Origin: Gemmata obscuriglobus
GTDB taxonomy: Bacteria; Planctomycetota; Planctomycetia; Gemmatales; Gemmataceae
DNA length: 32,000 nt
Direction of reading: 5' to 3'
Assembly: GCF_008065095.1 (NCBI RefSeq)
Contig: NZ_CP042911.1
Location: 3,330,001 to 3,362,000, forward strand
The translations under genes and the position numbers were made by a program. The notes beneath the pieces are model-generated. The model saw only the letters and a program-made list of their open reading frames with translations. It had not been told where the DNA came from and searched no databases. Positions within the stretch are counted from its first letter, which is position 1. The number at the start of each line of letters is the position of its first letter. Shown piece after piece: positions 1 through 16,437 of the stretch.

Positions 1-1526
1 GGCTGTTCAAGTTCGCCGACACCACCGGCGATGACGCCGTGATGGCCCGGTTCCTGACTGGGTTCGATCGCACCATCCGCCGGCGTCGCGTCACGAAGGT
101 GCGTTACAACCACCGCCGCCGCGAGAACGAGCAGTACGAAGCGGTCGTGACCCCGAGCGACACCGTACTCGCACGCGACGACCGCTCGTACAGCGGGCCG
201 TGGTTTACCGCCGACCGGGAACAGTTCACTGCCGGGAAGTTCCTGTTCTCCGTTGCGACGCGGAACTACCTGCGTCGCCGGGCGTGGCGGTACTTTCGGA
301 AACTCGGACGCCAGCACCCCGAGCGGTACATCTCAGCCGTTTGCACGGCGCTCAAACTCTACACCGACGCCGACGCCCCGGACGGCCTCGCGCTGCTCGA
401 CAACTGGGGGCTCGTTCACGTCCTGTTCCACCACTCGCCCGTTCTCGACGCGAAGCCGACCGGCTGGCGCGTCGCGGACGGCGGGTCACTGTCGCGTTTG
501 CAACCCGAGCCCATGTTCCGCAAACTGTGGTTGCGGAGCGCCGAGCCGATCTTCGACCTCTTGGTGCGTGCGAGGTGCCGGCCCGTCGCGATGTGGGCGG
601 TGCAGATGCTCCGGAAGCACTTCCCGGAGCGACTGACACAACTCACGCTCGACGAGCTTCTGGAGTGGCTGGTCTCGCCGAGCAGCGTTCTGAACGAACT
701 CGCGCTGGAGGTGCTCGAAAAGCGCGGCGGGCTGGAACAGGTCACGATCGAGCAGTGGTTGCGCATCACCGACGAAGCCCGGACGGACCTGCTCGACCGC
801 ATCTGCGAACTGGTGGCGCGGAGTGTTAAACCGGAACAGGTGACGTTCGCCGACGCCGTGGCGCTCGCGATGCAGCGCCCGGTTCCGCTCGCCCGGCTCG
901 GCTTGACGTTCCTTCAAGGGAAGAAGGTCAACACCGCCGAGGAAATCACTGCGGTGTTCGGGCTGCGGAACGCCGAGTGCGAACCCTTGCGCGTCGATCT
1001 GGTGAAGTGGGCGTGCGAGGTGCTGAGTTCGCGGACGGACTTCGACCCCGTATGGGTGCTCGAGTTCCTCGACTCGCGCTTTGAAGAGGTGCGTGAGGTG
1101 GGCTGGGAGTGGTTCCAGATCGAGCCGCGTGCCCGCGACGCGGTACTGGTGTGGCAGCGCCTCCTGGAATCCCCTTACGACAACATCCGCTTCCGACTGG
1201 TCGGTATGCTGGAGGAGCGGATCAAGTCGCGCGACGGTTTTGGGCAGCTTCCGCCGGACCGCGTGCGGTTCCTCTGGGCCACGGTGCTGCTGAACGTCCA
1301 GCGCGGCAGCCGGGCAAAGCCGTTCGTGGTGCGCCAGGTCATCGACCGGCTCAGTGCGAGCCCGGACGAGGCCGGCGACCTGCTGCCGATGATCGCGGTC
1401 TCGCTGCGGTCGGTGCGCGGGCCGGAGTTCCGCGCCGGGCTGGCGGGGGTGGCGCGATTCGTTGCGAAGAACCCGACGCGCAAGCCTCTGGTGGAGGCGG
1501 TATTTCCCGAACTGCAGTGGGGTTGA
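1..1526 (+). CDS. Hypothetical Leu-rich alpha-helical repeat protein (HEAT/ARM-like by eye), C-terminal part; probably truncated by the window edge
   Basis: The reading frame is open from the window edge through the first GTG/ATG at 39-44, with stop TGA at 1524-1526. Helical segments recur, e.g. LDELLEWLVSPSSVLNELALEVLEKRG and VLVWQRLLESPYDNIRFRLVGMLEERI. No catalytic motif recognised. Confidence 0.6.
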   Translation, partial: LFKFADTTGDDAVMARFLTGFDRTIRRRRVTKVRYNHRRRENEQYEAVVTPSDTVLARDDRSYSGPWFTADREQFTAGKFLFSVATRNYLRRRAWRYFRKLGRQHPERYISAVCTALKLYTDADAPDGLALLDNWGLVHVLFHHSPVLDAKPTGWRVADGGSLSRLQPEPMFRKLWLRSAEPIFDLLVRARCRPVAMWAVQMLRKHFPERLTQLTLDELLEWLVSPSSVLNELALEVLEKRGGLEQVTIEQWLRITDEARTDLLDRICELVARSVKPEQVTFADAVALAMQRPVPLARLGLTFLQGKKVNTAEEITAVFGLRNAECEPLRVDLVKWACEVLSSRTDFDPVWVLEFLDSRFEEVREVGWEWFQIEPRARDAVLVWQRLLESPYDNIRFRLVGMLEERIKSRDGFGQLPPDRVRFLWATVLLNVQRGSRAKPFVVRQVIDRLSASPDEAGDLLPMIAVSLRSVRGPEFRAGLAGVARFVAKNPTRKPLVEAVFPELQWG

Positions 1527-1558
1527 GTTGTCGATGTTAAATGTGTGCGAGTCGGACA

Positions 1559-1691
1559 CACAGGGCTCCCGCCCTGTGCTACGCTCGGCAACCCCTACGG
1601 GGTGCAAAGACTGAGTACACGAACAACAACCGCCGTTGGATTTTCCGCCCCGGAGGGGCCGGTGGACGTAGCACAGGGCGGGAGCCCTGTG
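1559..1691. repeat. MITE-like element: perfect 25-bp terminal inverted repeats flanking an 83-nt core
   Basis: cacagggctcccgccctgtgctacg (1559-1583) is the exact reverse complement of cgtagcacagggcgggagccctgtg (1667-1691). Each arm is also internally palindromic (cacaggg...ccctgtg). Confidence 0.7.
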
Positions 1692-1702
1692 CCAACAACT
1701 AA

Positions 1703-1910
1703 GGTGTCCGTCGCGATCCGAGACCTTCTCTGCGGCGTTCCGCCGCGGGTGCAGTTGCTCGCGATTGCGTTCCCCGAGCCGTTGGTCTTTTCGCCGCCCG
1801 GGGTACTCCCAGGACGGACTGAATCGACCTGCATCTCCGTCCCGGGAGTACCCCGGGCGGCGTTCGTGAACGACTCGGGTCCACGATTGAAGTCGGTCGC
1901 GGCGGACACC
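1703..1910 (+). ncRNA. Retron-like msr-msd ncRNA, copy A (distal from the RT gene)
   Basis: Same 208-nt length and architecture as copy B. The terminal stem a1 1703-1721 / a2 1893-1910 has 17 Watson-Crick pairs, 1 G-U pair and 1 bulge. It carries the conserved block ctgcggcgttccgccgcgggtgc, a 27-position hairpin 1792-1818/1836-1862 (26 pairs, 1 mismatch) with the conserved loop ctgaatcgacctgcatc, and the conserved 3' block ggtccacgattgaagtcgg. Confidence 0.6.
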
Positions 1911-1926
1911 GCAATACACGAAGACC

Positions 1927-2030
1927 GAAGAGCTTTTGACAGGATCAACAGGATTTAACGGGATCGAAAACAAGCGATGCTCTTCGCCTTTTCAATCCCG
2001 TTGATCTTGTTAATCCTGTTAAAACTCTTC
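1927..2030. repeat. Imperfect palindromic intergenic element of the gacaggatcaacaggat family, copy 1; possible terminator
   Basis: gaagagcttttgacaggatcaacaggatttaacgggatcgaaaa (1927-1970) pairs imperfectly with ttttcaatcccgttgatcttgttaatcctgttaaaactcttc (1989-2030). Its 5' 28 nt match 6131-6158 at 27/28 positions. Confidence 0.7.
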
Positions 2031-2061
2031 AACGCCCAGCGCAGTTCGGGAGAGGCTCCGA

Positions 2062-3756
2062 ATGCAACTGAACACGGCGTATCGCGGGCGCAGTGCCGTC
2101 GCCCAGACCCCCGTCGGTCTGGCGGTGTCGCTCGCGCCGAACCTGCGCCGCGACCGCGTCAGCTACACGGGCGTGTTGCGCCAGCCGCTTCGGTTCCGCG
2201 AAGCCATGTCGGCGCTTCACGACGTGGTCATTTCGGACCTGCGGTTCAAGCCGAAGGACAAGACCGCATACGAGGAGTGGAAGAAGGAAGAGGCCGCGAA
2301 AGAAGCCCACATCCGCACCGAGGCCGTGAAGCTCAAACGCGCGGAACTCGAAAAGGAACGTGGCCGCCCCATGCCGCCCGGCCTGGAGCGCAAGTTCCAG
2401 CGGTGCCGGCAGCGCTACTGGGACGCGCGGACGCGGTACAGCAACCTGCTGTCGCGCGAAGACCCGGAACTGTGGCGGATGCTGATGCCGTGCGACCCGG
2501 TCATCACTGTCAGCCCGGACGTGATGTTCTTCGAGTGTTTCAGCGCGGACGAGAGCAGCTACGGGTGCCTGACTGTCGAGCGGGACGCCTTCGAGGCCGA
2601 GCGCGACGTTGCCCTCGGTACCACCAACGTCGATTACTCCTGGCGCCTGTACGAGCACTTCCAGACCATCCGCAGTTACCGCGAGACGCGCTTCACCATC
2701 GACCCGCTCGGCTTCGAGGTGCAGACCAGCACCGACGACCCGGCATACCGCGAAGAGAAGATCGACCTGCCGCAGTCGTGGCTCCGCGGGTTCTCGTCGC
2801 TTCAAAGCGCAATGAGCCTGCCGATGCGGCGCGTGCCGCTCAGCCGCGAGGCGGTCTATTCGGTGATCGCGTTTCTGACCCGCAACAAGTCCAAGCGGTC
2901 GCCCCGGGCCGTGCGCTTCGAGCTGACGCCCGGCCGGCCGGTGAAATTGGTTCTCGAGCCGTGGGACAAGGAGATCGTGGTCCACGACCTGCCGTCTTCT
3001 GGGGCGCGGAAAGAGGTGATTCGCACCTGGGGGCGGGACCGGCTCCGCGTGCTCGGGCGACTGCTGCCGCTGCTCGACGGCGTGGACGTGTACCTGCTGG
3101 GAACGGGGCTGCCGAGCTTCTGGGTCGCGAAGATGGGGGAAATGAAGCTCACGCTCGGGCTCTCCGGGTGGACCGCCAACGACTGGACGAGTGGCGGCAG
3201 TGCCATCGACCAAATCGCACCGCCGGTGGCGCCGTCCAACGACGTGATGCAGGCGATGGCCGCCGCGTTCAGAGACTCCCCGACGTGGACGCTACCGGCG
3301 CTGGCCACGAAGACCCGCGGGTCCGAGGCCGCGGTGTCGGCCGGGTTAAACAAGCTCGCCCTGCTGGGGCAAGTGATTCACGACCTCCCGCACGGCGTGT
3401 ACCGGTGGCGCCAGGTGATGCCGGTGACCCTTTCGGCCGAGGTGATCGGCCCCGAGAACGAGGAGACGGTCGCCGCCCGCGAACTCACGCGCTGGCGGTG
3501 CAAGATCAACTCCGACAAGACGGACGCGAAAGGGCAGCGGCAGGTTGTGGGGACGGTCGACGGCCGCTCCACGTCCGAGGTGACGCTGGACGCGGACGAC
3601 CGCATCGTGGCGGGCAAGTGCGGCTGTTCGTACTTCTACACGGGCGGGCTGCGGAAGGGGCCGTGTCGGCACCTTCAAGCGCTGCGCAACAAGGCGCTGG
3701 GCGTCGGCGGGGACGGCGGGACGCTCGACAACTGGTTCCGGCGGTTCACGAACTGA
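2062..3756 (+). CDS. SWIM zinc-finger domain protein (564 aa)
   Basis: C-terminal CxC-x12-CxH motif (GKCGCSYFYTGGLRKGPCRHLQAL). ATG is preceded by gggagagg. A Lys/Glu-rich coiled segment lies near the N-terminus. Confidence 0.85.
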   Translation: MQLNTAYRGRSAVAQTPVGLAVSLAPNLRRDRVSYTGVLRQPLRFREAMSALHDVVISDLRFKPKDKTAYEEWKKEEAAKEAHIRTEAVKLKRAELEKERGRPMPPGLERKFQRCRQRYWDARTRYSNLLSREDPELWRMLMPCDPVITVSPDVMFFECFSADESSYGCLTVERDAFEAERDVALGTTNVDYSWRLYEHFQTIRSYRETRFTIDPLGFEVQTSTDDPAYREEKIDLPQSWLRGFSSLQSAMSLPMRRVPLSREAVYSVIAFLTRNKSKRSPRAVRFELTPGRPVKLVLEPWDKEIVVHDLPSSGARKEVIRTWGRDRLRVLGRLLPLLDGVDVYLLGTGLPSFWVAKMGEMKLTLGLSGWTANDWTSGGSAIDQIAPPVAPSNDVMQAMAAAFRDSPTWTLPALATKTRGSEAAVSAGLNKLALLGQVIHDLPHGVYRWRQVMPVTLSAEVIGPENEETVAARELTRWRCKINSDKTDAKGQRQVVGTVDGRSTSEVTLDADDRIVAGKCGCSYFYTGGLRKGPCRHLQALRNKALGVGGDGGTLDNWFRRFTN

Positions 3757-3792
3757 CGGCGCCCGGGGCGTAACGGCAAAGGTAAGGGCACC

Positions 3793-4257
3793 GTGACGAA
3801 GCCGGTTCTGCTCGCGGGGGTGCTCGGCGGGGTACTCGGGGGCGCCGGAGCGTTTGTGCTGGGGCGGGCGTTCCCGGCGGCGCCGGCGGTGGTGGTCGAG
3901 AAACCGCACGAGGCCCGGCCGTTCGCCGACGACCTGTTCATGAAGCTTCAGAAGGGGCAGGCGGATGAGTTCCTGGCGGCGGTGCGTGTGGGGGACCCCG
4001 AATACGACGATGCGGAGTTCGACAAGCTGATCCGCCAGCCGATGCTGCGGGTGCGCGAGGGGGCGGTTCGAGGGTACGGCGGCGCGGGCTCGTTCGAGTT
4101 CTTTCGCGAAACGGTCACCGCGCCGGACCTCGTCCGCTTCACGTACCTGGAACGCTACCCGCGCGGGTGCCTCGTGTGGCTGCTGTACTGCTACCGCGGG
4201 GCCGGCGGCTGGCACCCGATCGGGCTCAAGTTCCTCAAACCGGATGTCGTGTTGTAA
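3793..4257 (+). CDS. Small membrane-anchored or secreted hypothetical protein (154 aa)
   Basis: GTG start preceded by aaggtaaggg. N-terminal hydrophobic helix KPVLLAGVLGGVLGGAGAFVLG. The gene lies 36 nt after the SWIM gene and 30 nt before ncRNA copy B. Confidence 0.6.
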   Translation: MTKPVLLAGVLGGVLGGAGAFVLGRAFPAAPAVVVEKPHEARPFADDLFMKLQKGQADEFLAAVRVGDPEYDDAEFDKLIRQPMLRVREGAVRGYGGAGSFEFFRETVTAPDLVRFTYLERYPRGCLVWLLYCYRGAGGWHPIGLKFLKPDVVL

Positions 4258-4286
4258 GTGATGAAGTAACAGAGACTACTGAAGCC

Positions 4287-4494
4287 AAGCGGCCGGCTCC
4301 GAGACCTAAACATCCTGCGGCGTTCCGCCGCGGGTGCGGCTGCTTGCGATTGCGTTCCCGGGAGTGTTGTTCGTTTCGCCGGTCGAATTCGTGGCGCTTC
4401 CGGCCTGAATCGACCTGCGTCTCCGGAAGGCCACGAATTCGACCGGCGTGGTGAACGCTCTCGGTCCACGATTGAAGTCGGAGCCGGCCGCCTT
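4287..4494 (+). ncRNA. Retron msr-msd ncRNA, copy B (immediately upstream of the RT)
   Basis: a1 4289-4302 pairs with a2 4478-4491 as 14 perfect bp, plus 2 more after a bulge. It has the GC hairpin gcggcg-ttc-cgccgc and a 26-bp hairpin 4377-4403/4423-4448 with one bulge and loop cctgaatcgacctgcgtct. It ends 20 nt before the RT start codon, the canonical msr-msd-ret order. Confidence 0.75.
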
Positions 4495-4514
4495 GTTACC
4501 CGCGAGCATCGCTC

Positions 4515-6125
4515 ATGAGCCTCTTCGACTGGGTGTTCCGCCGGAAGCGCGACGCGGACACCCCTCCGGCGCCACCCCCAGCCGCGCCGACTGCTCCCGC
4601 TTCTTCGGACAAAGCACCGTCGGGTAACACCACCTCGGGGACTCCGGGGGCGAATGCTCCTCGCTCGTCCGAGGGGAGCGAAGACCAGTACGCCGCGAAC
4701 GACTTCCTGCCCATTTCGCGTCAGGAGATCGTCGACGCTGCCAAGAAGCACGGGCGCCTGCTCGCCACCGCGTTCCAGTTCGGGCGCCAGAGCATCATCC
4801 CGCCCGTCAGCGACCCGCGGACCGAGATCATCGACCGCGCGCTCGTTACGCACGGACTGCTCACGCCCGAAGAACTGAACGAGATCCACCGCGTCGGCGA
4901 GGAGTACGAGAAGGTCCGCCCGACCGAGCAGGGCATTGCGGCTGCAGCCGGACTGGCCGGCACCGCCGCCGTGCAAGCGTACCGGGCGGCCAAGGAGGCG
5001 GAGAAGGAGCGCAAGAAAAGAGAAGCGGAGCTGCGCAAGAAGGTGCGCGCCGAAGCCGTCTGGCGGCGCCGCACCACCGATATCATTTTTTTGGGGCGTG
5101 GTGTGTCGGGGCGGCTCCACCTGCGCTTGAGCGACGAGGGGCGCCTCACGGAACTCGGGTTGCCGGTGATGCACACGCCCGCTGATGTCGCGAACGCCCT
5201 CGGCCTCACCGTTCCGCGGCTCCGCTGGCTGGCGTTCCACACCGATGTGGCCACCCGCACGCACTACGTGAAGTTCTCGGTCCCGAAGAAGTCCGGCGGG
5301 ACGCGCCAGCTCGCCGCGCCGCACAAGAGTTTGAAGGCCGCGCAGCACTGGATTCTGGCGAACGTCGTGAACAAGCTGCCGGTGACCGAGGCCGCGCACG
5401 GGTTCGTTGCCGATCGCGGGATCGTGACCAACGCAAACCCGCACGTTTGCAAGGCGTTCGTGGTGAACTTGGACCTGTCGGACTTCTTCCCCTCGATCGC
5501 GTTCCCGCGGGTGCGGAGCGCGTTCGAGCGGTACGGCTACTCGGGTTGTGTTGCCACCATTCTTGCGCTGCTCTGCACCGAGTGCCCGCGCGCCGCGGTA
5601 ACCTATGCCGGAACCAAGTACGAGGCCGCGACCGGCCCGCGCGGGCTACCGCAGGGCGCGCCCACCAGCCCCGGGCTGTCGAACCAAGTCGCGCGCAAGC
5701 TCGACAAGCGGCTGCTCGGGGTCGCGACGAAGCTCGGCCTCACCTACACCCGCTACGCCGACGACCTCACCTTCTCCGGTGATGCGGACGCCGCTGCCAA
5801 GATCGGCTGGCTGCTTACGAAGGTGCGCCACATCGCCAGCGAGGAAGGGTTCGCCGTCAACGAGAAGAAGACCCGTGTGATGCGCCGCAGCGCGGCCCAG
5901 ATGGTCACGGGTGTGGTGGTGAACGACAAGCCGTCCGTGTGCCGCGACGAGCTGCGCCGGTTGAGGGCGATTCTGCACCGCGCGAAGTCCGAAGGGCTGG
6001 ACGCTCAGAACCGCGAAAAGCTGCCGAACTTCCGCGAGTGGCTGCGCGGGAAGATCGCGTTCGTGAGTATGGTCCGCCCGGACGCCGGCGCGAAGCTCAA
6101 GGCTCAACTCGACGCCGTGTCGTAA
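4515..6125 (+). CDS. Retron-type reverse transcriptase with a roughly 200-aa N-terminal extension (536 aa)
   Basis: RT motifs VVNLDLSDFFPSI, RGLPQGAPTSPGLSN and YTRYADDLTFSG (YADD). Retron-typical NAxxH (TNANPHV) and VTG (QMVTGVVVND) motifs are present. The N-terminus is a Pro/Ala/Ser-rich low-complexity stretch followed by a Lys/Glu coiled segment (AKEAEKERKKREAELRKK). Confidence 0.9.
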   Translation: MSLFDWVFRRKRDADTPPAPPPAAPTAPASSDKAPSGNTTSGTPGANAPRSSEGSEDQYAANDFLPISRQEIVDAAKKHGRLLATAFQFGRQSIIPPVSDPRTEIIDRALVTHGLLTPEELNEIHRVGEEYEKVRPTEQGIAAAAGLAGTAAVQAYRAAKEAEKERKKREAELRKKVRAEAVWRRRTTDIIFLGRGVSGRLHLRLSDEGRLTELGLPVMHTPADVANALGLTVPRLRWLAFHTDVATRTHYVKFSVPKKSGGTRQLAAPHKSLKAAQHWILANVVNKLPVTEAAHGFVADRGIVTNANPHVCKAFVVNLDLSDFFPSIAFPRVRSAFERYGYSGCVATILALLCTECPRAAVTYAGTKYEAATGPRGLPQGAPTSPGLSNQVARKLDKRLLGVATKLGLTYTRYADDLTFSGDADAAAKIGWLLTKVRHIASEEGFAVNEKKTRVMRRSAAQMVTGVVVNDKPSVCRDELRRLRAILHRAKSEGLDAQNREKLPNFREWLRGKIAFVSMVRPDAGAKLKAQLDAVS

Positions 6126-6130
6126 TTCAT

Positions 6131-6235
6131 GAAGAGCGTTTGACAGGATCAACAGGATGGACAGGATGTCAAAGGCAATAACTACAGCGTCCTGTCATTG
6201 AAATCCTGTCCTTCCTGTTGATCCTGTCAAAAATC
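6131..6235. repeat. Palindromic intergenic element of the gacaggatcaacaggat family, copy 2; possible terminator after the RT gene
   Basis: tttgacaggatcaacaggatggacaggat (6139-6167) pairs with atcctgtccttcctgttgatcctgtcaaa (6204-6232) at 28/29 positions. It has the same orientation and the same 5' block as copy 1. Confidence 0.7.
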
Positions 6236-6272
6236 AACACGCATTCGCCGCACTGCCACCATTTGAGGTTGT

Positions 6273-7973
6273 ATGCGTTACCTCTCGCTGTTGGTTCTTC
6301 TCGTGTGCGCGCCGGCGGCGCGAGCGACCGAGAAACCGAACATCGTCATCGTCCTCACCGACGACATGGGGTTCTCGGATCTCGGTTGCTACGGCGGCGA
6401 GATCAGCACTCCGAATCTCGACGCGCTGGCTGCGAACGGGTTGAGGTTCACGCAGTTCTACAACACCGCGCGGTGCTGCCCGACGCGGGCGTCACTGCTC
6501 ACCGGGCTGTACCCGCACCAGGCGGGCGTCGGTCACATGGTCAACGACAAGGGTGAGAAGTTCCCCGGCTATCGTGGAGACCTGAACAAGAACTGCGTCA
6601 CGCTTGCGGAAGCGGTGAAGCCGGCCGGATACCGCGCGTACGCGGTCGGCAAGTGGCACGTCACGCCCCACACCGGTCCGAAGGCGCCGAACCACAACTG
6701 GCCGCTTCAGCGCGGGTTCGACCGGTACTACGGCACCATCCAGGGCGCCGGGAGCTTCTTCGATCCGGCCTCGCTCACCCGCGACAACACACAGATTTCG
6801 GCGTTCGCGGATCCGGAGTATCAGCCGAAGACCTACTACTACACCGACGCCATCTCCGACCACGCGGTGCGCTTCGTCGCCGATCACGATAAGGAGCACA
6901 AGGACAAACCGCTGCTACTGTACGTCGCCTACACCGCGGCGCACTGGCCGATGCACGCGCTCCCGGAAGACATCGCGAAGTACAAGGGGAAGTACGGGAA
7001 CGGGTACGATCCCGTGCGAAAGGCTCGGTTCGAGAAAGCCGCGAAGCTGGGCCTCATCGACCCCAAGCAGGGGATGGCGCCCGGCGCCGGCGACTGGAAC
7101 GCAGTCGCGGATAAGAACTGGGAGGCCGCCGGGATGGAGGTGTACGCGGCGATGGTGGACCGGATGGACGCGGGCGTTGGGAAGATCGTCGCCGAACTGA
7201 AACGCACCGGGCGGTTCGACAACACGCTGATCCTGTACATGCAGGACAACGGCGGGTGCGCCGAACTTCAGGGGCGCACGGGGAACAAAAACCACCCGAA
7301 CATCGACCGCCCGGAGAAGCCGACCCTCCCGCCGCTGAAGGCCGACGCCCTCTTGCCATCGGGGAGCGTGCCGCCGCAGACCCGTGACGGGTTTCCGGTG
7401 CGCATGGGGCCGAAGGTGATGCCCGGGGCCGCGGACACGTACCTCGCCTACGGCCGCGGGTGGGCCAACGTGTCGAATACCCCGTTCCGCGAATACAAGC
7501 ACTGGGTCCACGAGGGCGGCATCAGCACCCCGCTCATCGCGTCGTGGCCGAAGGGCATTGCCGCGAGGGGCGAGTTGCGCACCCAGCCCGGGCACCTCGT
7601 GGACGTGATGGCGACCTGCATCGAACTGAGCGGCGCGCCGTACCCGGCTGCGGTCGGCGCGCAGGCGATTACACCGCTCGAGGGCAAGAGCCTCGTTCCG
7701 GCGTTCGCGAACAAACCGCTCGCGCGCGAGGCGATCTACTGGGAACACGAGGGCAACCGGGCGGTGCGCGCCGGGGACTGGAAGCTGGTCGCGAAGGGGC
7801 CGGGCGGGAAATGGGAACTGTACAACATCAAGGACGACCGCACCGAGTCGAGCGACCTCGCCGCAAAGCAACCCGACAAGTTAAAGGAACTCGTCGCGAA
7901 GTGGGAGGCGTGGGCCGTTCGCGCGAAGGTCGTCCCGTGGATCTCGACGCCAGAATACAAACTGAGCAAGTGA
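6273..7973 (+). CDS. Secreted arylsulfatase (Cys-type sulfatase family)
   Basis: Signal peptide MRYLSLLVLLVCAPAARA. Metal-binding start IVIVLTDDMGFSDLG. Formylglycine motif CCPTRASLLTG. Shine-Dalgarno gagg precedes the ATG. Confidence 0.9.
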   Translation: MRYLSLLVLLVCAPAARATEKPNIVIVLTDDMGFSDLGCYGGEISTPNLDALAANGLRFTQFYNTARCCPTRASLLTGLYPHQAGVGHMVNDKGEKFPGYRGDLNKNCVTLAEAVKPAGYRAYAVGKWHVTPHTGPKAPNHNWPLQRGFDRYYGTIQGAGSFFDPASLTRDNTQISAFADPEYQPKTYYYTDAISDHAVRFVADHDKEHKDKPLLLYVAYTAAHWPMHALPEDIAKYKGKYGNGYDPVRKARFEKAAKLGLIDPKQGMAPGAGDWNAVADKNWEAAGMEVYAAMVDRMDAGVGKIVAELKRTGRFDNTLILYMQDNGGCAELQGRTGNKNHPNIDRPEKPTLPPLKADALLPSGSVPPQTRDGFPVRMGPKVMPGAADTYLAYGRGWANVSNTPFREYKHWVHEGGISTPLIASWPKGIAARGELRTQPGHLVDVMATCIELSGAPYPAAVGAQAITPLEGKSLVPAFANKPLAREAIYWEHEGNRAVRAGDWKLVAKGPGGKWELYNIKDDRTESSDLAAKQPDKLKELVAKWEAWAVRAKVVPWISTPEYKLSK

Positions 7974-11268: not shown

Positions 11269-11380
11269 GTGTTCACCGCAGAGGGCGGAGAGAAAACAGG
11301 AGATGCTTGGGAAAACAAAGCCGTTCACTCGCTCTTCTGTTTTCATCTCTGCGCCCTCTCGTGCCCTCTGCGGTGAACAC
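11269..11380. repeat. REP-like intergenic palindrome
   Basis: Perfect 18-bp inverted repeat gtgttcaccgcagagggc (11269-11286) / gccctctgcggtgaacac (11363-11380), with a nested imperfect repeat (gagagaaaacag / ctgttttcatctc). It sits between two same-strand genes. Confidence 0.65.
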
Positions 11381-14853: not shown

Positions 14854-14939
14854 CCAACAAGGGGCCGGGCGCCCCGCACGTGCCACCCGTAACATACCGC
14901 ACCCCCGGTCCGCGCGGCGGGGCTCGCAGAGAGGTTGTC

Positions 14940-16205
14940 ATGCCGTTTCACTCGTACCGCCTTCCGAACGGGCTCCAGATCATCGGCGAAACGAGCCCCG
15001 CCGCGCGGTCCGTCGCGGTCGGGTTCTTCGTGAAGACCGGCGCCCGCGACGAGACCGCCGTTGAAGCCGGGGTGTCGCACTTCCTCGAACACATGATGTT
15101 CAAGGGGACCGCGCGGCGCACCGCCGAGCAGGTGAACCTCGATTTCGACCGCATCGGGGCCAGCAACAACGCCTCCACCAGCGAGGAGAACACCGTCTAC
15201 TACGCCGCGGTGCTGCCCGAGTACCTGCCGCAGGTGGTGGACGTGCTGGCCGACATGCTGCGGCCCAGCTTGCGCCAGGACGACTTCGACACCGAGAAGA
15301 AGGTGATTCTCGAAGAGATCAAGTTGTACGACGACCAACCGGATTCCGTGATGGCGGACCACGCCCGGCGGCTGTACTACAAGTCGCACCCGCTCGGGAA
15401 CTCGGTCCTGGGCACGCTCGAAAGCGTCGGCGCGCTGACCCGCGACCAGATGTACGCCTACTTCTCGCGCCGCTACGCCGCCAACAACATCGTCGTTTCC
15501 GCCGCCGGCAACTTCGACTGGCAGCAGTTCGTCGACCTTGTCACCAAAGCGTGTTCCGAGTGGAACACGGATGTCGTGGGGCGCGACAACCGGACCGAGT
15601 GGGCCGGTGAGCCGGGGTTCCACCTGCTGACGCGGGAGACCGTTCAGCAGCAGTACGCGCTGTTCGTGGGCGGCGGGCCGCCCGCGGACTCGAACATGCG
15701 GTACGCAGCCGACGTGCTGGCGCTGGCCGTCGGCGATTACACCGGCAGCCGGCTGTACTGGGAACTGGTGGACCCGGGGCACGCGGAGTCCGCCGACTTC
15801 GGGTACGCGGAGAACGACGGGAGCGGGGCCATCTTCGTGTCCCTCACGTGCGAGCCCGAGGGCACCGCGGAGAACCTCGAGCGGGTCGAGAAGATCCTGA
15901 AAGAGGTTCAGCGGAACGGGATCACGGACGAAGAGTTCCAGCAGGCGAAGAACAAGATCCTGTCGCGGATCGTGCGCCGGAGCGAGCGCCCGATGGGACG
16001 GATGATGGCGCTGGCGTCGATGTGGACGTACACCGGCGAGTACCGCGATGTGGACACCGAGGTCGCGCGCTTCGACGCGGTTACGCAGGCGGACATTCGG
16101 GCATACCTGGACGCCTACCCGATCGACCGGAACATGGTGGTATCACTCGGGCCGCTGAAGGAGTTGAACGGCGTCACTGGCACCGCCGTTCCAAGTCTCG
16201 GCTGA
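14940..16205 (+). CDS. M16 family zinc metallopeptidase (catalytic subunit)
   Basis: HxxEH motif in GVSHFLEHMMFKG; N-terminus YRLPNGLQIIGE. Confidence 0.9.
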   Translation: MPFHSYRLPNGLQIIGETSPAARSVAVGFFVKTGARDETAVEAGVSHFLEHMMFKGTARRTAEQVNLDFDRIGASNNASTSEENTVYYAAVLPEYLPQVVDVLADMLRPSLRQDDFDTEKKVILEEIKLYDDQPDSVMADHARRLYYKSHPLGNSVLGTLESVGALTRDQMYAYFSRRYAANNIVVSAAGNFDWQQFVDLVTKACSEWNTDVVGRDNRTEWAGEPGFHLLTRETVQQQYALFVGGGPPADSNMRYAADVLALAVGDYTGSRLYWELVDPGHAESADFGYAENDGSGAIFVSLTCEPEGTAENLERVEKILKEVQRNGITDEEFQQAKNKILSRIVRRSERPMGRMMALASMWTYTGEYRDVDTEVARFDAVTQADIRAYLDAYPIDRNMVVSLGPLKELNGVTGTAVPSLG

Positions 16206-16384: not shown

Positions 16385-16437
16385 AAGCACCAAGGCCACT
16401 CATCCAACGTCGCGTTGGATGAGTGGCCTTGGTGCTT
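16385..16437. terminator. Very long perfect hairpin (about 25-bp stem) between the M16 operon and the tRNA 3' end; possible bidirectional terminator
   Basis: aagcaccaaggccactcatccaacg-tcg-cgttggatgagtggccttggtgctt. It is followed by gcctttt on the + strand and lies 20 nt downstream of the minus-strand tRNA. Confidence 0.5.

What the first reader, a model, noticed from the sequence alone, without database searches (positions are those of the whole stretch)
4287..6125. Retron: msr-msd-like ncRNA directly upstream of a retron-type reverse transcriptase
The RT carries the YADD catalytic box plus the NAxxH (TNANPH) and VTG (QMVTGVVVND) motifs that, from established knowledge, distinguish retron RTs from group II intron, DGR and Abi RTs. 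A 208-nt element ends 20 nt upstream and has every architectural hallmark of a retron ncRNA. It has terminal inverted repeats (a1 4289-4302 / a2 4478-4491, 14 perfect bp), a short GC hairpin in the 5' (msr) half, and one long 26-bp hairpin in the 3' (msd) half. A G at 4303 immediately follows the a1 stem (context ccgaGacc) and is a candidate 2'-OH branching guanosine. As far as I know, retrons have hardly been examined in Planctomycetota.
Basis: partly seen in the sequence, partly recalled or inferred. Interest (0 to 1): 0.75.

Follow-up and report, generated by a model that had tools for sequence, protein, structure and literature searches.

The report
Type XIII retron with two ncRNAs
The reverse transcriptase and the folded RNA next to it are a genuine retron of the long-known Myxococcus Mx162 kind (type XIII), but the Gemmata obscuriglobus locus is larger than reported and carries a second, differently addressed template RNA gene 2.6 kb upstream.

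Summary

**Classification.** The reverse transcriptase (RT, 4515-6125) scores best against PADLOC's RT_XIII model (8.6e-155). Its closest solved relatives are retron RTs.

**The RNA.** The 4289-4491 element folds far better than shuffled sequence (z = -8.4). It has homologues next to related RTs in 65 of 80 fetched loci, almost all from Planctomycetota. Its helices covary strongly. G4303 is invariant in all 80 aligned copies.

**The locus is bigger than reported.** This is the complete Mestre 2020 type XIII system, the class of Mx162, Mx65 and Sa163. The source is Gemmata obscuriglobus.

**What looks new.**
- There are two ncRNA genes with non-cross-pairing a1/a2 ends and different msd stems.
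- Among 50 collinear loci, 27 carry the ncRNA only between the HEAT/ARM and SWIM genes, detached from the RT.
- 14 of the 50 carry two or three copies.
- I found no paper describing this arrangement.

msDNA production, and any defence role of type XIII, remain untested. This is a known kind with a modest architectural variant.

The parts
1..1526 (+). HEAT/ARM-repeat accessory gene of the type XIII retron. Its 5' end is cut by the window edge; the full gene encodes 588-591 aa.
   Evidence: PADLOC HEAT-ARM_XIII 2.4e-151, matching profile positions 87-557 of 564. There is no stop codon in frame across window 3-38. The full-length G. algarum orthologue (591 aa) covers profile 13-557 at 2.7e-179. 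The G. obscuriglobus genome carries a 588-aa gene call at this position.
1703..1910 (+). ncRNA-1, a second msr-msd gene. a1 is 1703-1721 (T1717 bulged). The candidate priming G is 1722. The msr hairpin is 1729-1749 and a second small hairpin is 1751-1768. The msd hairpin is 1773-1879, with its core at 1792-1862. The opposing G is 1892 and a2 is 1893-1910.
   Evidence: It shares 80% of scaffold columns with ncRNA-2, but only 40% of a1/a2 columns and 42% of msd-stem columns. The MFE fold has the same architecture. Copies at this position are conserved across the Gemmata clade, with a1/a2 identity of 78-90%. This is the only ncRNA position in 27 of 50 collinear loci.
2062..3756 (+). SWIM zinc-finger accessory gene (564 aa), the 'primary' associated protein of type XIII.
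   Evidence: PADLOC SWIM_XIII 1.8e-180 over residues 1-543. A CxCx12CxH motif lies at residues 520-537, and a Dx7Dx4Ex32D...E motif lies within residues 145-232. The overlapping ORF 1977-3773 is a spurious frame. The G. obscuriglobus gene call is 564 aa.
3793..4257 (+). 154-aa gene with a hydrophobic N-terminus (GobsT_28210). It is a Gemmata-clade-specific insert between the SWIM gene and ncRNA-2. Whether it belongs to the system is uncertain.
   Evidence: It is 100% identical to a G. obscuriglobus protein. Only 10 homologues were found, and those with a source name are Gemmata. It sits at the same position in L001-L004, L006, L007 and L017, at 38-97% identity. It has no Pfam, PADLOC or NCBIfam hit.
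a1 is 4289-4302. The candidate priming G is 4303. The msr hairpin is 4314-4334. The msd hairpin is 4358-4464, with its core at 4377-4448. The opposing G is 4477 and a2 is 4478-4491.
   Evidence: Sequence and fold. 80-sequence alignment and covariation.
4515..6125 (+). Retron reverse transcriptase, 536 aa. The conserved N-terminal extension spans roughly residues 60-210, and the RT domain spans roughly 245-535.
   Evidence: PADLOC RT_XIII 8.6e-155. Pfam RVT_1 over residues 256-459. NAxxH, YADD and VTG are invariant. The nearest solved structure is the Ec86 retron RT at 1.3e-43.
6139..6231 (.). Long AT-richer palindrome directly after the RT stop codon, with 39-nt arms that are 90% complementary. 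It may be a transcript end or processing signal. A 28-nt piece of it also follows ncRNA-1 at 1927-1954.
   Evidence: (family D19). No classical terminator was called here on the + strand.

Best explanation
Window 1-6231 holds a complete type XIII retron system (Mestre et al. 2020 classification, the class of Myxococcus Mx162/Mx65) from Gemmata obscuriglobus. The gene order is HEAT/ARM, ncRNA-1, SWIM protein, 154-aa protein, ncRNA-2, RT, all on one strand.

**Shown by the sequence and comparisons**
- All three protein families are the type XIII ones.
- Both RNAs have the retron architecture: an a1/a2 closing stem, a nearly invariant msr hairpin, a long msd hairpin, and an invariant G at the inner end of a1 opposite a conserved G.
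- The helices covary across 80 copies.

**Inferred mechanism, by analogy with characterised retrons**
1. The RT binds the conserved msr hairpin of each folded RNA.
2. It uses the 2'-OH of G4303 (ncRNA-2) or G1722 (ncRNA-1) as primer.
3. It copies the RNA leftwards, starting next to a2, through the msd hairpin.
4. It stops near the base of that hairpin. The product is a branched RNA-DNA molecule (msDNA) with a DNA hairpin of roughly 110-125 nt.
5. Host RNase H removes the copied template.

The two RNAs have different, non-cross-pairing a1/a2 stems and different msd stems. One RT would therefore make two distinct msDNAs.

**More speculative**
- The RT-msDNA complex associates with the SWIM and HEAT/ARM proteins and controls them.
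- The system responds to phage infection, as other retron types do.
For: **Protein families**
- RT_XIII 8.6e-155 and HEAT-ARM_XIII 2.4e-151.
- SWIM_XIII 1.8e-180.
- The SWIM protein carries CxCx12CxH and a close match to the D/E motif that Mestre describes for cluster 114.
- The RT has an N-terminal extension, as the myxobacterial retron RTs do.
- The retron motifs are invariant, and the nearest solved structures are retron RTs.

**RNA**
- z = -8.4.
- Homologues were found in 65 of 80 related loci, always on the RT strand.
- 34 of 45 RNAalifold pairs show compensatory changes.
- 79.9% of cells pair against 39-48% when slid, and 0 of 500 shuffles reach the observed value.
- The context CGA-G-AC is invariant. 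Some loci have GAGC, as Mx65 does.

**Second copy**
- Alignment and region identities.
- Copies are orthologous by position across the Gemmata clade.
- Cognate a1:a2 duplexes are -35.2 and -35.8 kcal/mol. Cross-pairings are -18.5 and -19.9, which equals the random background of -18.6.

**Synteny**
- HEAT-SWIM-RT is collinear in 50 loci including the window.
- Independent gene calls in the G. obscuriglobus genome match mine.
Against: - No msDNA, transcript or phenotype data exist for this locus.
- No Rfam family matches the RNA.
- I could not compare it directly with the Mx162, Mx65 or type XIII reference RNAs.
- No sigma-70-like promoter or + strand intrinsic terminator was detected, so the transcription units are unknown.
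- No paper found in these searches reports a defence function for a type XIII retron. Mestre et al. note a moderate correlation with host 16S trees, which suggests vertical inheritance and a possible non-defence role.
- The second small msr hairpin is weakly supported, in either of two alternative pairings (58.9% and 67.0% of cells paired).
- The role of the 154-aa gene is unknown.
Confidence: 0.85

Rival explanations
1. Only one of the two ncRNA genes is functional. The other is a decaying duplicate, left for example by a retron duplication in which the RT was lost.
For: The same 28-nt sequence, GAAGAGC(T/G)TTTGACAGGATCAACAGGAT, follows both ncRNA-1 (1927-1954) and the RT stop codon (6131-6158). 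This pattern would be expected if an ncRNA-RT-terminator unit had been duplicated and its RT then deleted. The second msr hairpin of ncRNA-2 contains a C-A mismatch that ncRNA-1 lacks (read from the sequences; the MFE fold of ncRNA-2 does not form this hairpin).
Against: Both copies keep every invariant block, the priming-G context and fully compensated stems. Both positions are conserved as orthologues across species whose RTs are only 75-81% identical. The upstream position is the sole ncRNA in 27 of 50 loci and the RT-proximal position is the sole one in 9, so each position is sufficient somewhere. In G. algarum the 28-nt motif is found only after ncRNA-1, so it is a local repeat rather than a duplication scar shared by the clade.
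Confidence: 0.15
2. The locus is a retron in its biochemistry but not a phage-defence system. It would be a vertically inherited, domesticated element with a cellular role, such as DNA metabolism or regulation through the SWIM and HEAT/ARM proteins.
For: Mestre et al. report that type XIII trees correlate with host 16S (0.78) and suggest domestication. RT relatives occur in 257 species-representative genomes with rigid HEAT-SWIM-RT synteny. The SWIM protein is more conserved than the RT: 87% against 81% identity to Gemmata sp. IIL30. Low-confidence structure models of the SWIM protein resemble only PCNA and 9-1-1 sliding clamps, not a toxin or nuclease.
Against: Every retron type tested so far acts in anti-phage defence (my own knowledge; also stated in the abstracts listed). 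The msd stems are hypervariable between close relatives (27-57% identity), and ncRNA copy number varies. Both patterns fit an arms race better than housekeeping. An IS3 transposase sits just upstream in the genome.
Confidence: 0.3
3. The RT is not a retron RT but belongs to another class (group II intron, DGR, Abi or DRT). On this reading the two similar about 200-nt elements are a DGR template/variable repeat pair or intron RNA.
For: Two about 200-nt direct repeats lie near an RT and differ in a central block, which superficially resembles a TR/VR pair.
Against: The group II intron model TIGR04416 scores 57.8 bits against a cut-off of 300. Drt2 and Drt3a score 36 and 31 bits. No group II intron RNA family was found in 3500-7000. 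Neither repeat lies inside a target gene. The differences between the copies are paired, compensatory stem changes rather than adenine-specific substitutions. All 25 listed PADLOC hits (the best of 65) are retron RT models.
Confidence: 0.02

Closest known systems
Type XIII retron systems (Mestre et al. 2020, RT clade 10): Retron-Mxa1 (Mx162), Retron-Mxa2 (Mx65), Retron-Sau1 (Sa163), Retron-Nex2 (Ne144)
   Same: The three protein families are the same: an RT with an N-terminal extension, a SWIM zinc-finger protein with CxCx12CxH and a D/E motif, and a HEAT/ARM protein encoded before the SWIM gene. The RNA has the same plan: an a1/a2 stem, msr hairpin(s) and one long msd hairpin. The priming G sits in an xAGx context (GAGA here, GAGC in some relatives and in Mx65).
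   Different: The host phylum is Planctomycetota, not Myxococcota. The predicted msd is shorter: about 110-125 nt inferred, against 162, 163, 144 or 65 nt. The locus has two ncRNA genes, one of them separated from the RT by the SWIM gene. An extra 154-aa gene is present.
Retron-Eco1 (Ec86), type II-A, the best-characterised retron
   Same: It is the closest RT with a solved structure (1.3e-43 over residues 210-490). The overall msr-msd logic and the NAxxH, YADD and VTG motifs are shared.
   Different: The accessory proteins differ (a nucleoside deoxyribosyltransferase-like effector in Ec86). Ec86 has no N-terminal RT extension and has a single ncRNA directly upstream of the RT.
Engineered retron arrays ('multitrons', Gonzalez-Delgado et al. 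2023 preprint)
   Same: One RT serves several ncRNA or msd units that carry different msd content.
   Different: Those arrays are synthetic, and that preprint's text has no occurrence of 'natural', 'naturally' or 'in nature'. Here the multiple units are natural and conserved. Units at different positions have mutually non-complementary a1/a2 stems, while tandem units share theirs.

Membership tests
Retron (msr-msd ncRNA plus retron RT) | The RT belongs to the retron RT clade | tested here: met
   All 25 listed PADLOC hits (the best of 65) are retron RT models, and the best is RT_XIII at 514 bits. The nearest PDB chains are retron RTs: Ec86 at 1.3e-43, then Ec67, Kva2, Ec78, Ec83 and Eco8. Group II intron RTs reach only 6.5e-8. 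No formal tree was built.
Retron (msr-msd ncRNA plus retron RT) | Retron-specific motifs NAxxH (region X) and VTG (region Y), plus the YADD catalytic box | tested here: met
   TNANPH at 305-310, YADD at 414-417 and VTG at 464-466. These residues are invariant in 17 homologues.
Retron (msr-msd ncRNA plus retron RT) | An adjacent same-strand ncRNA with terminal inverted repeats a1/a2, msr hairpin(s) and a long msd hairpin, conserved with covariation | tested here: met
   (fold, z = -8.4). (34 of 45 pairs compensatory). (79.9% paired against 39-48% slid; 0 of 500 shuffles).
Retron (msr-msd ncRNA plus retron RT) | A conserved priming guanosine at the inner end of a1, opposite a G before a2 | tested here: met
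   G4303 is invariant in 80 of 80 copies and G4477 is at least 90% conserved. ncRNA-1 has the same geometry, with G1722 and G1892. The priming chemistry itself was not tested.
Retron (msr-msd ncRNA plus retron RT) | Production of branched msDNA with a 2'-5' linkage | not testable with these tools
   This needs msDNA extraction with RNase A and debranching assays.
Type XIII retron system (Mestre 2020) | An RT of clade 10 with an extended N-terminus | tested here: met
   RT_XIII scores 514 bits against 358 bits for the next model. The N-terminal region of about 210 aa is conserved from about residue 60. Myxobacterial RTs are described as having the same extension.
Type XIII retron system (Mestre 2020) | [quoted passage not shown] | tested here: met
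   SWIM_XIII 1.8e-180. CGCx12CRH lies at 520-537 and D145x7Dx4Ex32D follows. The last spacing to E is 39-40 residues rather than 37. Pfam SWIM alone is below threshold.
Type XIII retron system (Mestre 2020) | A preceding HEAT/ARM-repeat gene (cluster 216 and relatives) | tested here: met
   HEAT-ARM_XIII at 2.4e-151 for the truncated window copy and 2.7e-179 for the full-length orthologue.
Type XIII retron system (Mestre 2020) | An ncRNA matching the type XIII consensus structure | not tested
   No reference type XIII RNA or covariance model was available. Rfam has no match. The paper's supplements are not held.
Type XIII retron system (Mestre 2020) | Anti-phage (or any) biological function | not testable with these tools
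   No paper reporting a tested function for type XIII was found.
Group II intron | A maturase-type RT inside a group II intron RNA | tested here: not met
   TIGR04416 scores 57.8 bits against a cut-off of 300. No group II intron RNA family was found in 3500-7000 at E up to 10.
Diversity-generating retroelement | A TR/VR repeat pair with adenine-specific differences, with the VR inside a target gene | tested here: not met
   The only repeat pair near the RT is the two ncRNAs. Both are intergenic, and their differences are compensatory stem changes.

The most novel reading that the evidence does not exclude
Planctomycetota type XIII retrons may be natural multi-template retrons. One RT would serve two or three ncRNA genes.

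- Copies at different positions in a locus carry private, non-cross-pairing a1/a2 'addresses'.
- Tandem copies share their addresses.
- The msd stems are hypervariable around a conserved tip loop, so a single locus would produce a small repertoire of different msDNAs.
- The ncRNA is often uncoupled from the RT gene: it lies between the HEAT/ARM and SWIM genes in 27 of 50 loci.
- The partner SWIM protein may contain a PCNA-like two-domain clamp module that reads the msDNA hairpin, rather than a transposase-derived nuclease.
Probability: 0.4. Interest if true: 0.65.

Novelty: new variant of a known kind. Interest (0 to 1): 0.45.

Why it matters
Type XIII is the class of the first retrons ever found (Mx162, 1984). 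I found no paper that reports a tested function, a mechanism or a solved structure for it.

This locus comes from a cultivable organism, Gemmata obscuriglobus. It shows that in one large clade:

- the template RNA gene can sit away from the RT gene;
- it can be present in two or three copies;
- the closing stems of the copies are orthogonal;
- the msd stems turn over rapidly.

If both RNAs are used, this is a natural counterpart of engineered retron arrays. It would offer ready-made orthogonal a1/a2 pairs for multiplexed DNA production. It would also suggest that msd sequence diversity matters to what the system senses.

Tried and rejected
**Searches that led nowhere**
- Rfam at E up to 10 over 3500-7000 returned only chance-level hits. 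The palindrome after the RT matched microRNA models far below their thresholds, and nothing matched the ncRNA.
- The promoter and terminator scan of 1-6400 found no promoter-like site and no + strand terminator, so transcription units could not be assigned.
- Pfam and NCBIfam gave nothing above threshold for the HEAT/ARM, SWIM or 154-aa proteins.
- A sequence search of the PDB found no homologue of the SWIM or HEAT/ARM proteins.
- Literature searches for natural multi-ncRNA retrons, for retrons with SWIM or HEAT proteins, and for retrons with PCNA found nothing relevant beyond Mestre 2020 and the 2026 SPIRE survey. Absence from this library is not proof of absence.

**Structure prediction of the SWIM protein**
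- Two AlphaFold2 runs gave low-confidence models: pLDDT 55.9 for the whole protein and 57.6 for residues 131-390.
- The uniform sliding-clamp matches have E about 1e-5, TM-scores of 0.37-0.47 and rmsd of 11-12 A. I keep them as a lead, not a result.

**Comparisons I could not make**
- The Mx162 and Mx65 RNAs.
- The Mestre supplement is not held.

**Interpretations rejected**
- ORF 1977-3773 (598 aa) and ORF 1545-1958 (137 aa) are spurious frames. The first overlaps the real SWIM gene. The second covers the palindrome and ncRNA-1.
- A helix pairing C4305-T4307 with the GAAG before a2 is not supported (48.7% of cells paired).
Full report
**1. Observation**

- a1 (4289-4302) and a2 (4478-4491) are exact reverse complements of 14 nt.
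- The minimum-free-energy fold of 4287-4494 contains four elements:
  - the a1/a2 closing stem;
  - a 9-bp GC-rich hairpin at 4314-4334;
  - a long hairpin whose core is 19 + 7 = 26 bp (4377-4403 / 4423-4448);
  - G4303 directly after a1.
- The fold energy is -127.7 kcal/mol, 8.4 standard deviations below dinucleotide shuffles.
- Perfect inverted 14-mers within 250 nt are expected 0.25 times per shuffled window. They are found at only eight places in the real window.
- The ORF 4515-6125 encodes 536 aa with TNANPH (305-310), YADD (414-417) and QMVTGVVVND (462-471).

**2. What the RT is**

- Pfam finds only RVT_1.
- In PADLOC-DB the best model is RT_XIII (8.6e-155, 514 bits). The next models are RT_other (358 bits) and other retron RT models.
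- NCBIfam finds retron RT families well above group II intron maturase (57.8 bits against a cut-off of 300) and above Drt2/Drt3a. No NCBIfam model reaches its own cut-off, because none is built for this type.
- Against the PDB the nearest sequences are retron RTs, led by Ec86 at 1.3e-43. Group II intron RTs reach 6.5e-8.
- In an alignment with 16 homologues down to 58% identity, the NAxxH, YADD and VTG residues are invariant.
- The N-terminal extension is conserved from about residue 60 to 210 (FLPISR..., FGR..IPP..DPRT.LIDR..., a coiled-coil stretch, then FLGRGVSGRL).
- Myxobacterial retron RTs are known for the same kind of N-terminal extension (Simon et al. 2019, PMC6868368).

**3. The rest of the system**

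The upstream genes lie on the same strand and are tightly packed.

- ORF 2062-3756 (564 aa) matches PADLOC SWIM_XIII at 1.8e-180.
  - It contains CGCx12CRH at residues 520-537.
  - It contains D145x7Dx4Ex32D...E.
  - These are the CxCx12CxH motif and a close match to the D/E motif that Mestre et al. 2020 (PMC7736814) describe for cluster 114, the primary protein of type XIII. The last spacing is 39-40 residues rather than 37.
- The first ORF matches HEAT-ARM_XIII at 2.4e-151, but only from profile position 87.
  - There is no stop codon before position 39.
  - The full-length orthologue in Gemmata algarum covers the whole profile.
  - The gene therefore runs off the 5' edge of the window.
  - It is 100% identical to GobsT_28210 of Gemmata obscuriglobus.
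  - It has only ten homologues; the ones that carry a source name are Gemmata.
- The exact-match look-up places the window in G. obscuriglobus CP025958.1. The independent gene calls there (588, 564, 154 and 536 aa) agree with mine. An IS3-family transposase lies just upstream.

The locus is thus a complete type XIII retron in the sense of Mestre et al. This is the class that contains Mx162, Mx65, Sa163 and Ne144.

**4. A second ncRNA**

While reading the 535-nt gap between the HEAT/ARM and SWIM genes I found a second copy of the RNA, at 1703-1910.

  - CCGAGACC;
  - CTGCGGCGTTCCGCCGCGGGTGC;
  - GCGATTGCGTTCCC;
  - CTGAATCGACCTGC.TCTCC;
  - GTGAACG;
  - GGTCCACGATTGAAGTCGG.
- Its a1/a2 stem (18 bp with one bulge) and its msd stem have different sequences but remain fully paired.
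- Identity between the two copies is 80% in the scaffold, 40% in a1/a2 and 42% in the msd stem.

**5. Comparative evidence**

*Distribution.* A scan of one genome per species with an RT alignment found relatives in 257 genomes. The best 80 loci are almost all Planctomycetota: Gemmataceae, Isosphaeraceae and Pirellulaceae. A profile of the two window RNAs found 84 copies in 65 of these loci, all on the RT strand.

*Covariation.*
- In an 80-sequence alignment, A4302, G4303 and C4305 are invariant. So are the core of the msr hairpin, AAC (4454-4456) of the GTGAACG block, and G4474 and T4478 of the GAAGTCG block. The remaining bases of those two blocks, including the opposing G4477, are at least 90% conserved.
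- RNAalifold predicts 45 pairs, and 34 of them show compensatory changes.
- With the structure of ncRNA-1 projected on the alignment, 79.9% of cells pair, against 39-48% for slid partners. The covariation score is 0.418 against at most 0.154. None of 500 shuffles reaches the observed value.
- The a1/a2 stem, the msr hairpin and the msd helices are well supported.
- The second small msr hairpin is weakly supported in both alternative pairings I tested (58.9% and 67.0%).
- The tip loop of the msd hairpin (GGCTGA.TC.AC...GT.CCC) is conserved, while the stem below it is hypervariable.

*Priming G.* The context CGA-G-AC (GAGA, or GAGC in some loci) resembles the CAGC of Mx162 and the GAGC of Mx65. 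The G opposite it recalls the 'two opposing G residues' drawn by Mestre et al..

**6. Architecture census**

Fifty loci, including the window, have collinear HEAT/ARM, SWIM and RT genes.

| ncRNA arrangement | Loci |
|---|---|
| One ncRNA, between HEAT/ARM and SWIM only | 27 |
| One ncRNA, between SWIM and RT only (the canonical place) | 9 |
| One at each position (includes the window and G. algarum) | 10 |
| Tandem arrays: 2+1, 2+1, 2+0 and 3+0 | 4 |

- In some single-copy loci the SWIM-RT gap is only 27-40 nt. The absence of an RT-proximal copy there is real.
- In the Gemmata clade the copies are orthologous by position, with a1/a2 identity of 78-90% between species. Their msd stems are only 27-57% identical. 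The one exception is window ncRNA-2 against L007, at 96%.
- Cognate a1:a2 duplexes have a median of -36.9 kcal/mol.
- In the window the cognate values are -35.2 and -35.8, and the cross-pairings are -18.5 and -19.9. The cross values equal the random background of -18.6.
- Tandem copies (L042, L072, L074) share interchangeable a1/a2 stems.
- In L019 and L035 the two copies have the same msd stem but different a1/a2 stems. This fits a need to keep co-expressed RNAs from mispairing. That is an inference.

**7. Mechanism**

*Shown:* the family membership of the three proteins and the conserved retron-type RNA architecture of both copies.

*Inferred from the established retron mechanism* (Simon et al. 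2019; Mestre et al. 2020):
1. The RT recognises the conserved msr hairpin.
2. It primes from the 2'-OH of G4303 or G1722.
3. It copies from the base next to a2 through the msd hairpin.
4. It stops near the base of the hairpin.
5. RNase H removes the template, leaving a branched msDNA of roughly 110-125 nt.

*Speculative:* the RT-msDNA complex controls the SWIM and HEAT/ARM proteins, and phage infection releases them.

*A lead on the SWIM protein.* Two AlphaFold2 models are of low confidence (pLDDT 55.9 and 57.6). Foldseek against the PDB nevertheless returns only sliding clamps at the top: PCNA, 9-1-1, DnaN and gp45. For the model of residues 131-390 the matches run over about 250 columns with E about 1e-5, TM-scores of 0.37-0.47 and rmsd of 11-12 A. 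The full-length model gives the same families at lower scores. The region holding the 'DEDE' motif may therefore be half of a PCNA-like module rather than a transposase core. The models are too weak to claim this.

**8. Comparison and novelty**

The PADLOC type XIII HMMs recognise all three genes.
- A 2026 survey preprint counts 26 type XIII retrons in Planctomycetota.
- I did not find the following described anywhere:
  - an ncRNA gene detached from the RT gene;
  - two or three ncRNA genes per locus;
  - position-specific a1/a2 stems together with hypervariable msd stems.
- Engineered 'multitrons' do the same thing artificially.
- I therefore rate this a new variant of a known kind, of moderate interest. 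The retron call itself is ordinary. The multi-template architecture is worth an experiment in a cultivable host.

Noticed in passing
window 1559-1691: A 133-nt palindromic element (50-nt arms, 82% complementary; its outer 25 nt form a perfect inverted repeat, and each outer arm is itself a small hairpin, CACAGGGC/GCCCTGTG). It lies between the HEAT/ARM stop codon and ncRNA-1. It accounts for part of the unusually long HEAT-SWIM gap in this species: 539 nt against about 250-350 nt elsewhere.
   Followed up: partly
window 6139-6231 and 1927-2025: A 93-nt AT-richer palindrome directly follows the RT stop codon. Its first 28 nt (GAAGAGCGTTTGACAGGATCAACAGGAT) recur at 96% identity right after ncRNA-1. 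The core GACAGGATCAACAGGA occurs only at 1938, 6142 and 6213(-) in the window. In G. algarum it occurs only after ncRNA-1. It matched microRNA models in Rfam far below their thresholds, which is a chance effect of long hairpins.
   Followed up: partly
window 3793-4257: A 154-aa protein with a hydrophobic N-terminal segment (GobsT_28210; UniRef label 'DUF4864 domain-containing'). It is found only in Gemmata-like genomes. In the eight loci that have it, including the window, it always sits between the SWIM gene and the RT. It could be a clade-specific extra retron component or a passenger gene.
   Followed up: partly
window 2452-3231 (SWIM protein residues 131-390): Low-confidence AlphaFold2 models of this region match only PCNA, 9-1-1 and beta-clamp structures in the PDB (E about 1e-5, TM 0.37-0.47). 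Published descriptions call this region a transposase-like DEDE motif.
   Followed up: partly
L074 4081-4902; L042 362-832; L072 6284-6757; L002 3725-4310; L007 2140-2642: Tandem arrays of two or three ncRNA genes. In L074 and L042 the copies share a1/a2 stems but have different msd stems. In L072 the two copies are identical in the msd stem and scaffold and 95% identical in a1/a2. In L074 two copies have msd stems about 20 nt longer.
   Followed up: partly
L081 610-1738 (G. obscuriglobus genome, upstream of the window start): An IS3-family transposase (HTH_Tnp_1 plus rve) lies about 730 nt upstream of the HEAT/ARM gene. In the older draft assembly it is split into two ORFs.
   Followed up: no
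window 11269-11380, 14910-15008, 16385-16437: Three further perfect inverted repeats of at least 14 nt within 250 nt, outside the retron. They were not examined.
   Followed up: no
L066, L072, L076, L078, L080: Close RT relatives with the same synteny sit in metagenome bins labelled Chitinophaga, Alcaligenaceae or Verrucomicrobiota. This could reflect binning errors or real transfer outside Planctomycetota.
   Followed up: no
L014 4226-4422: The upstream ncRNA copy in this MAG is interrupted by Ns and lacks the msd tip. This looks like an assembly gap at a long hairpin, not a biological deletion.
   Followed up: no
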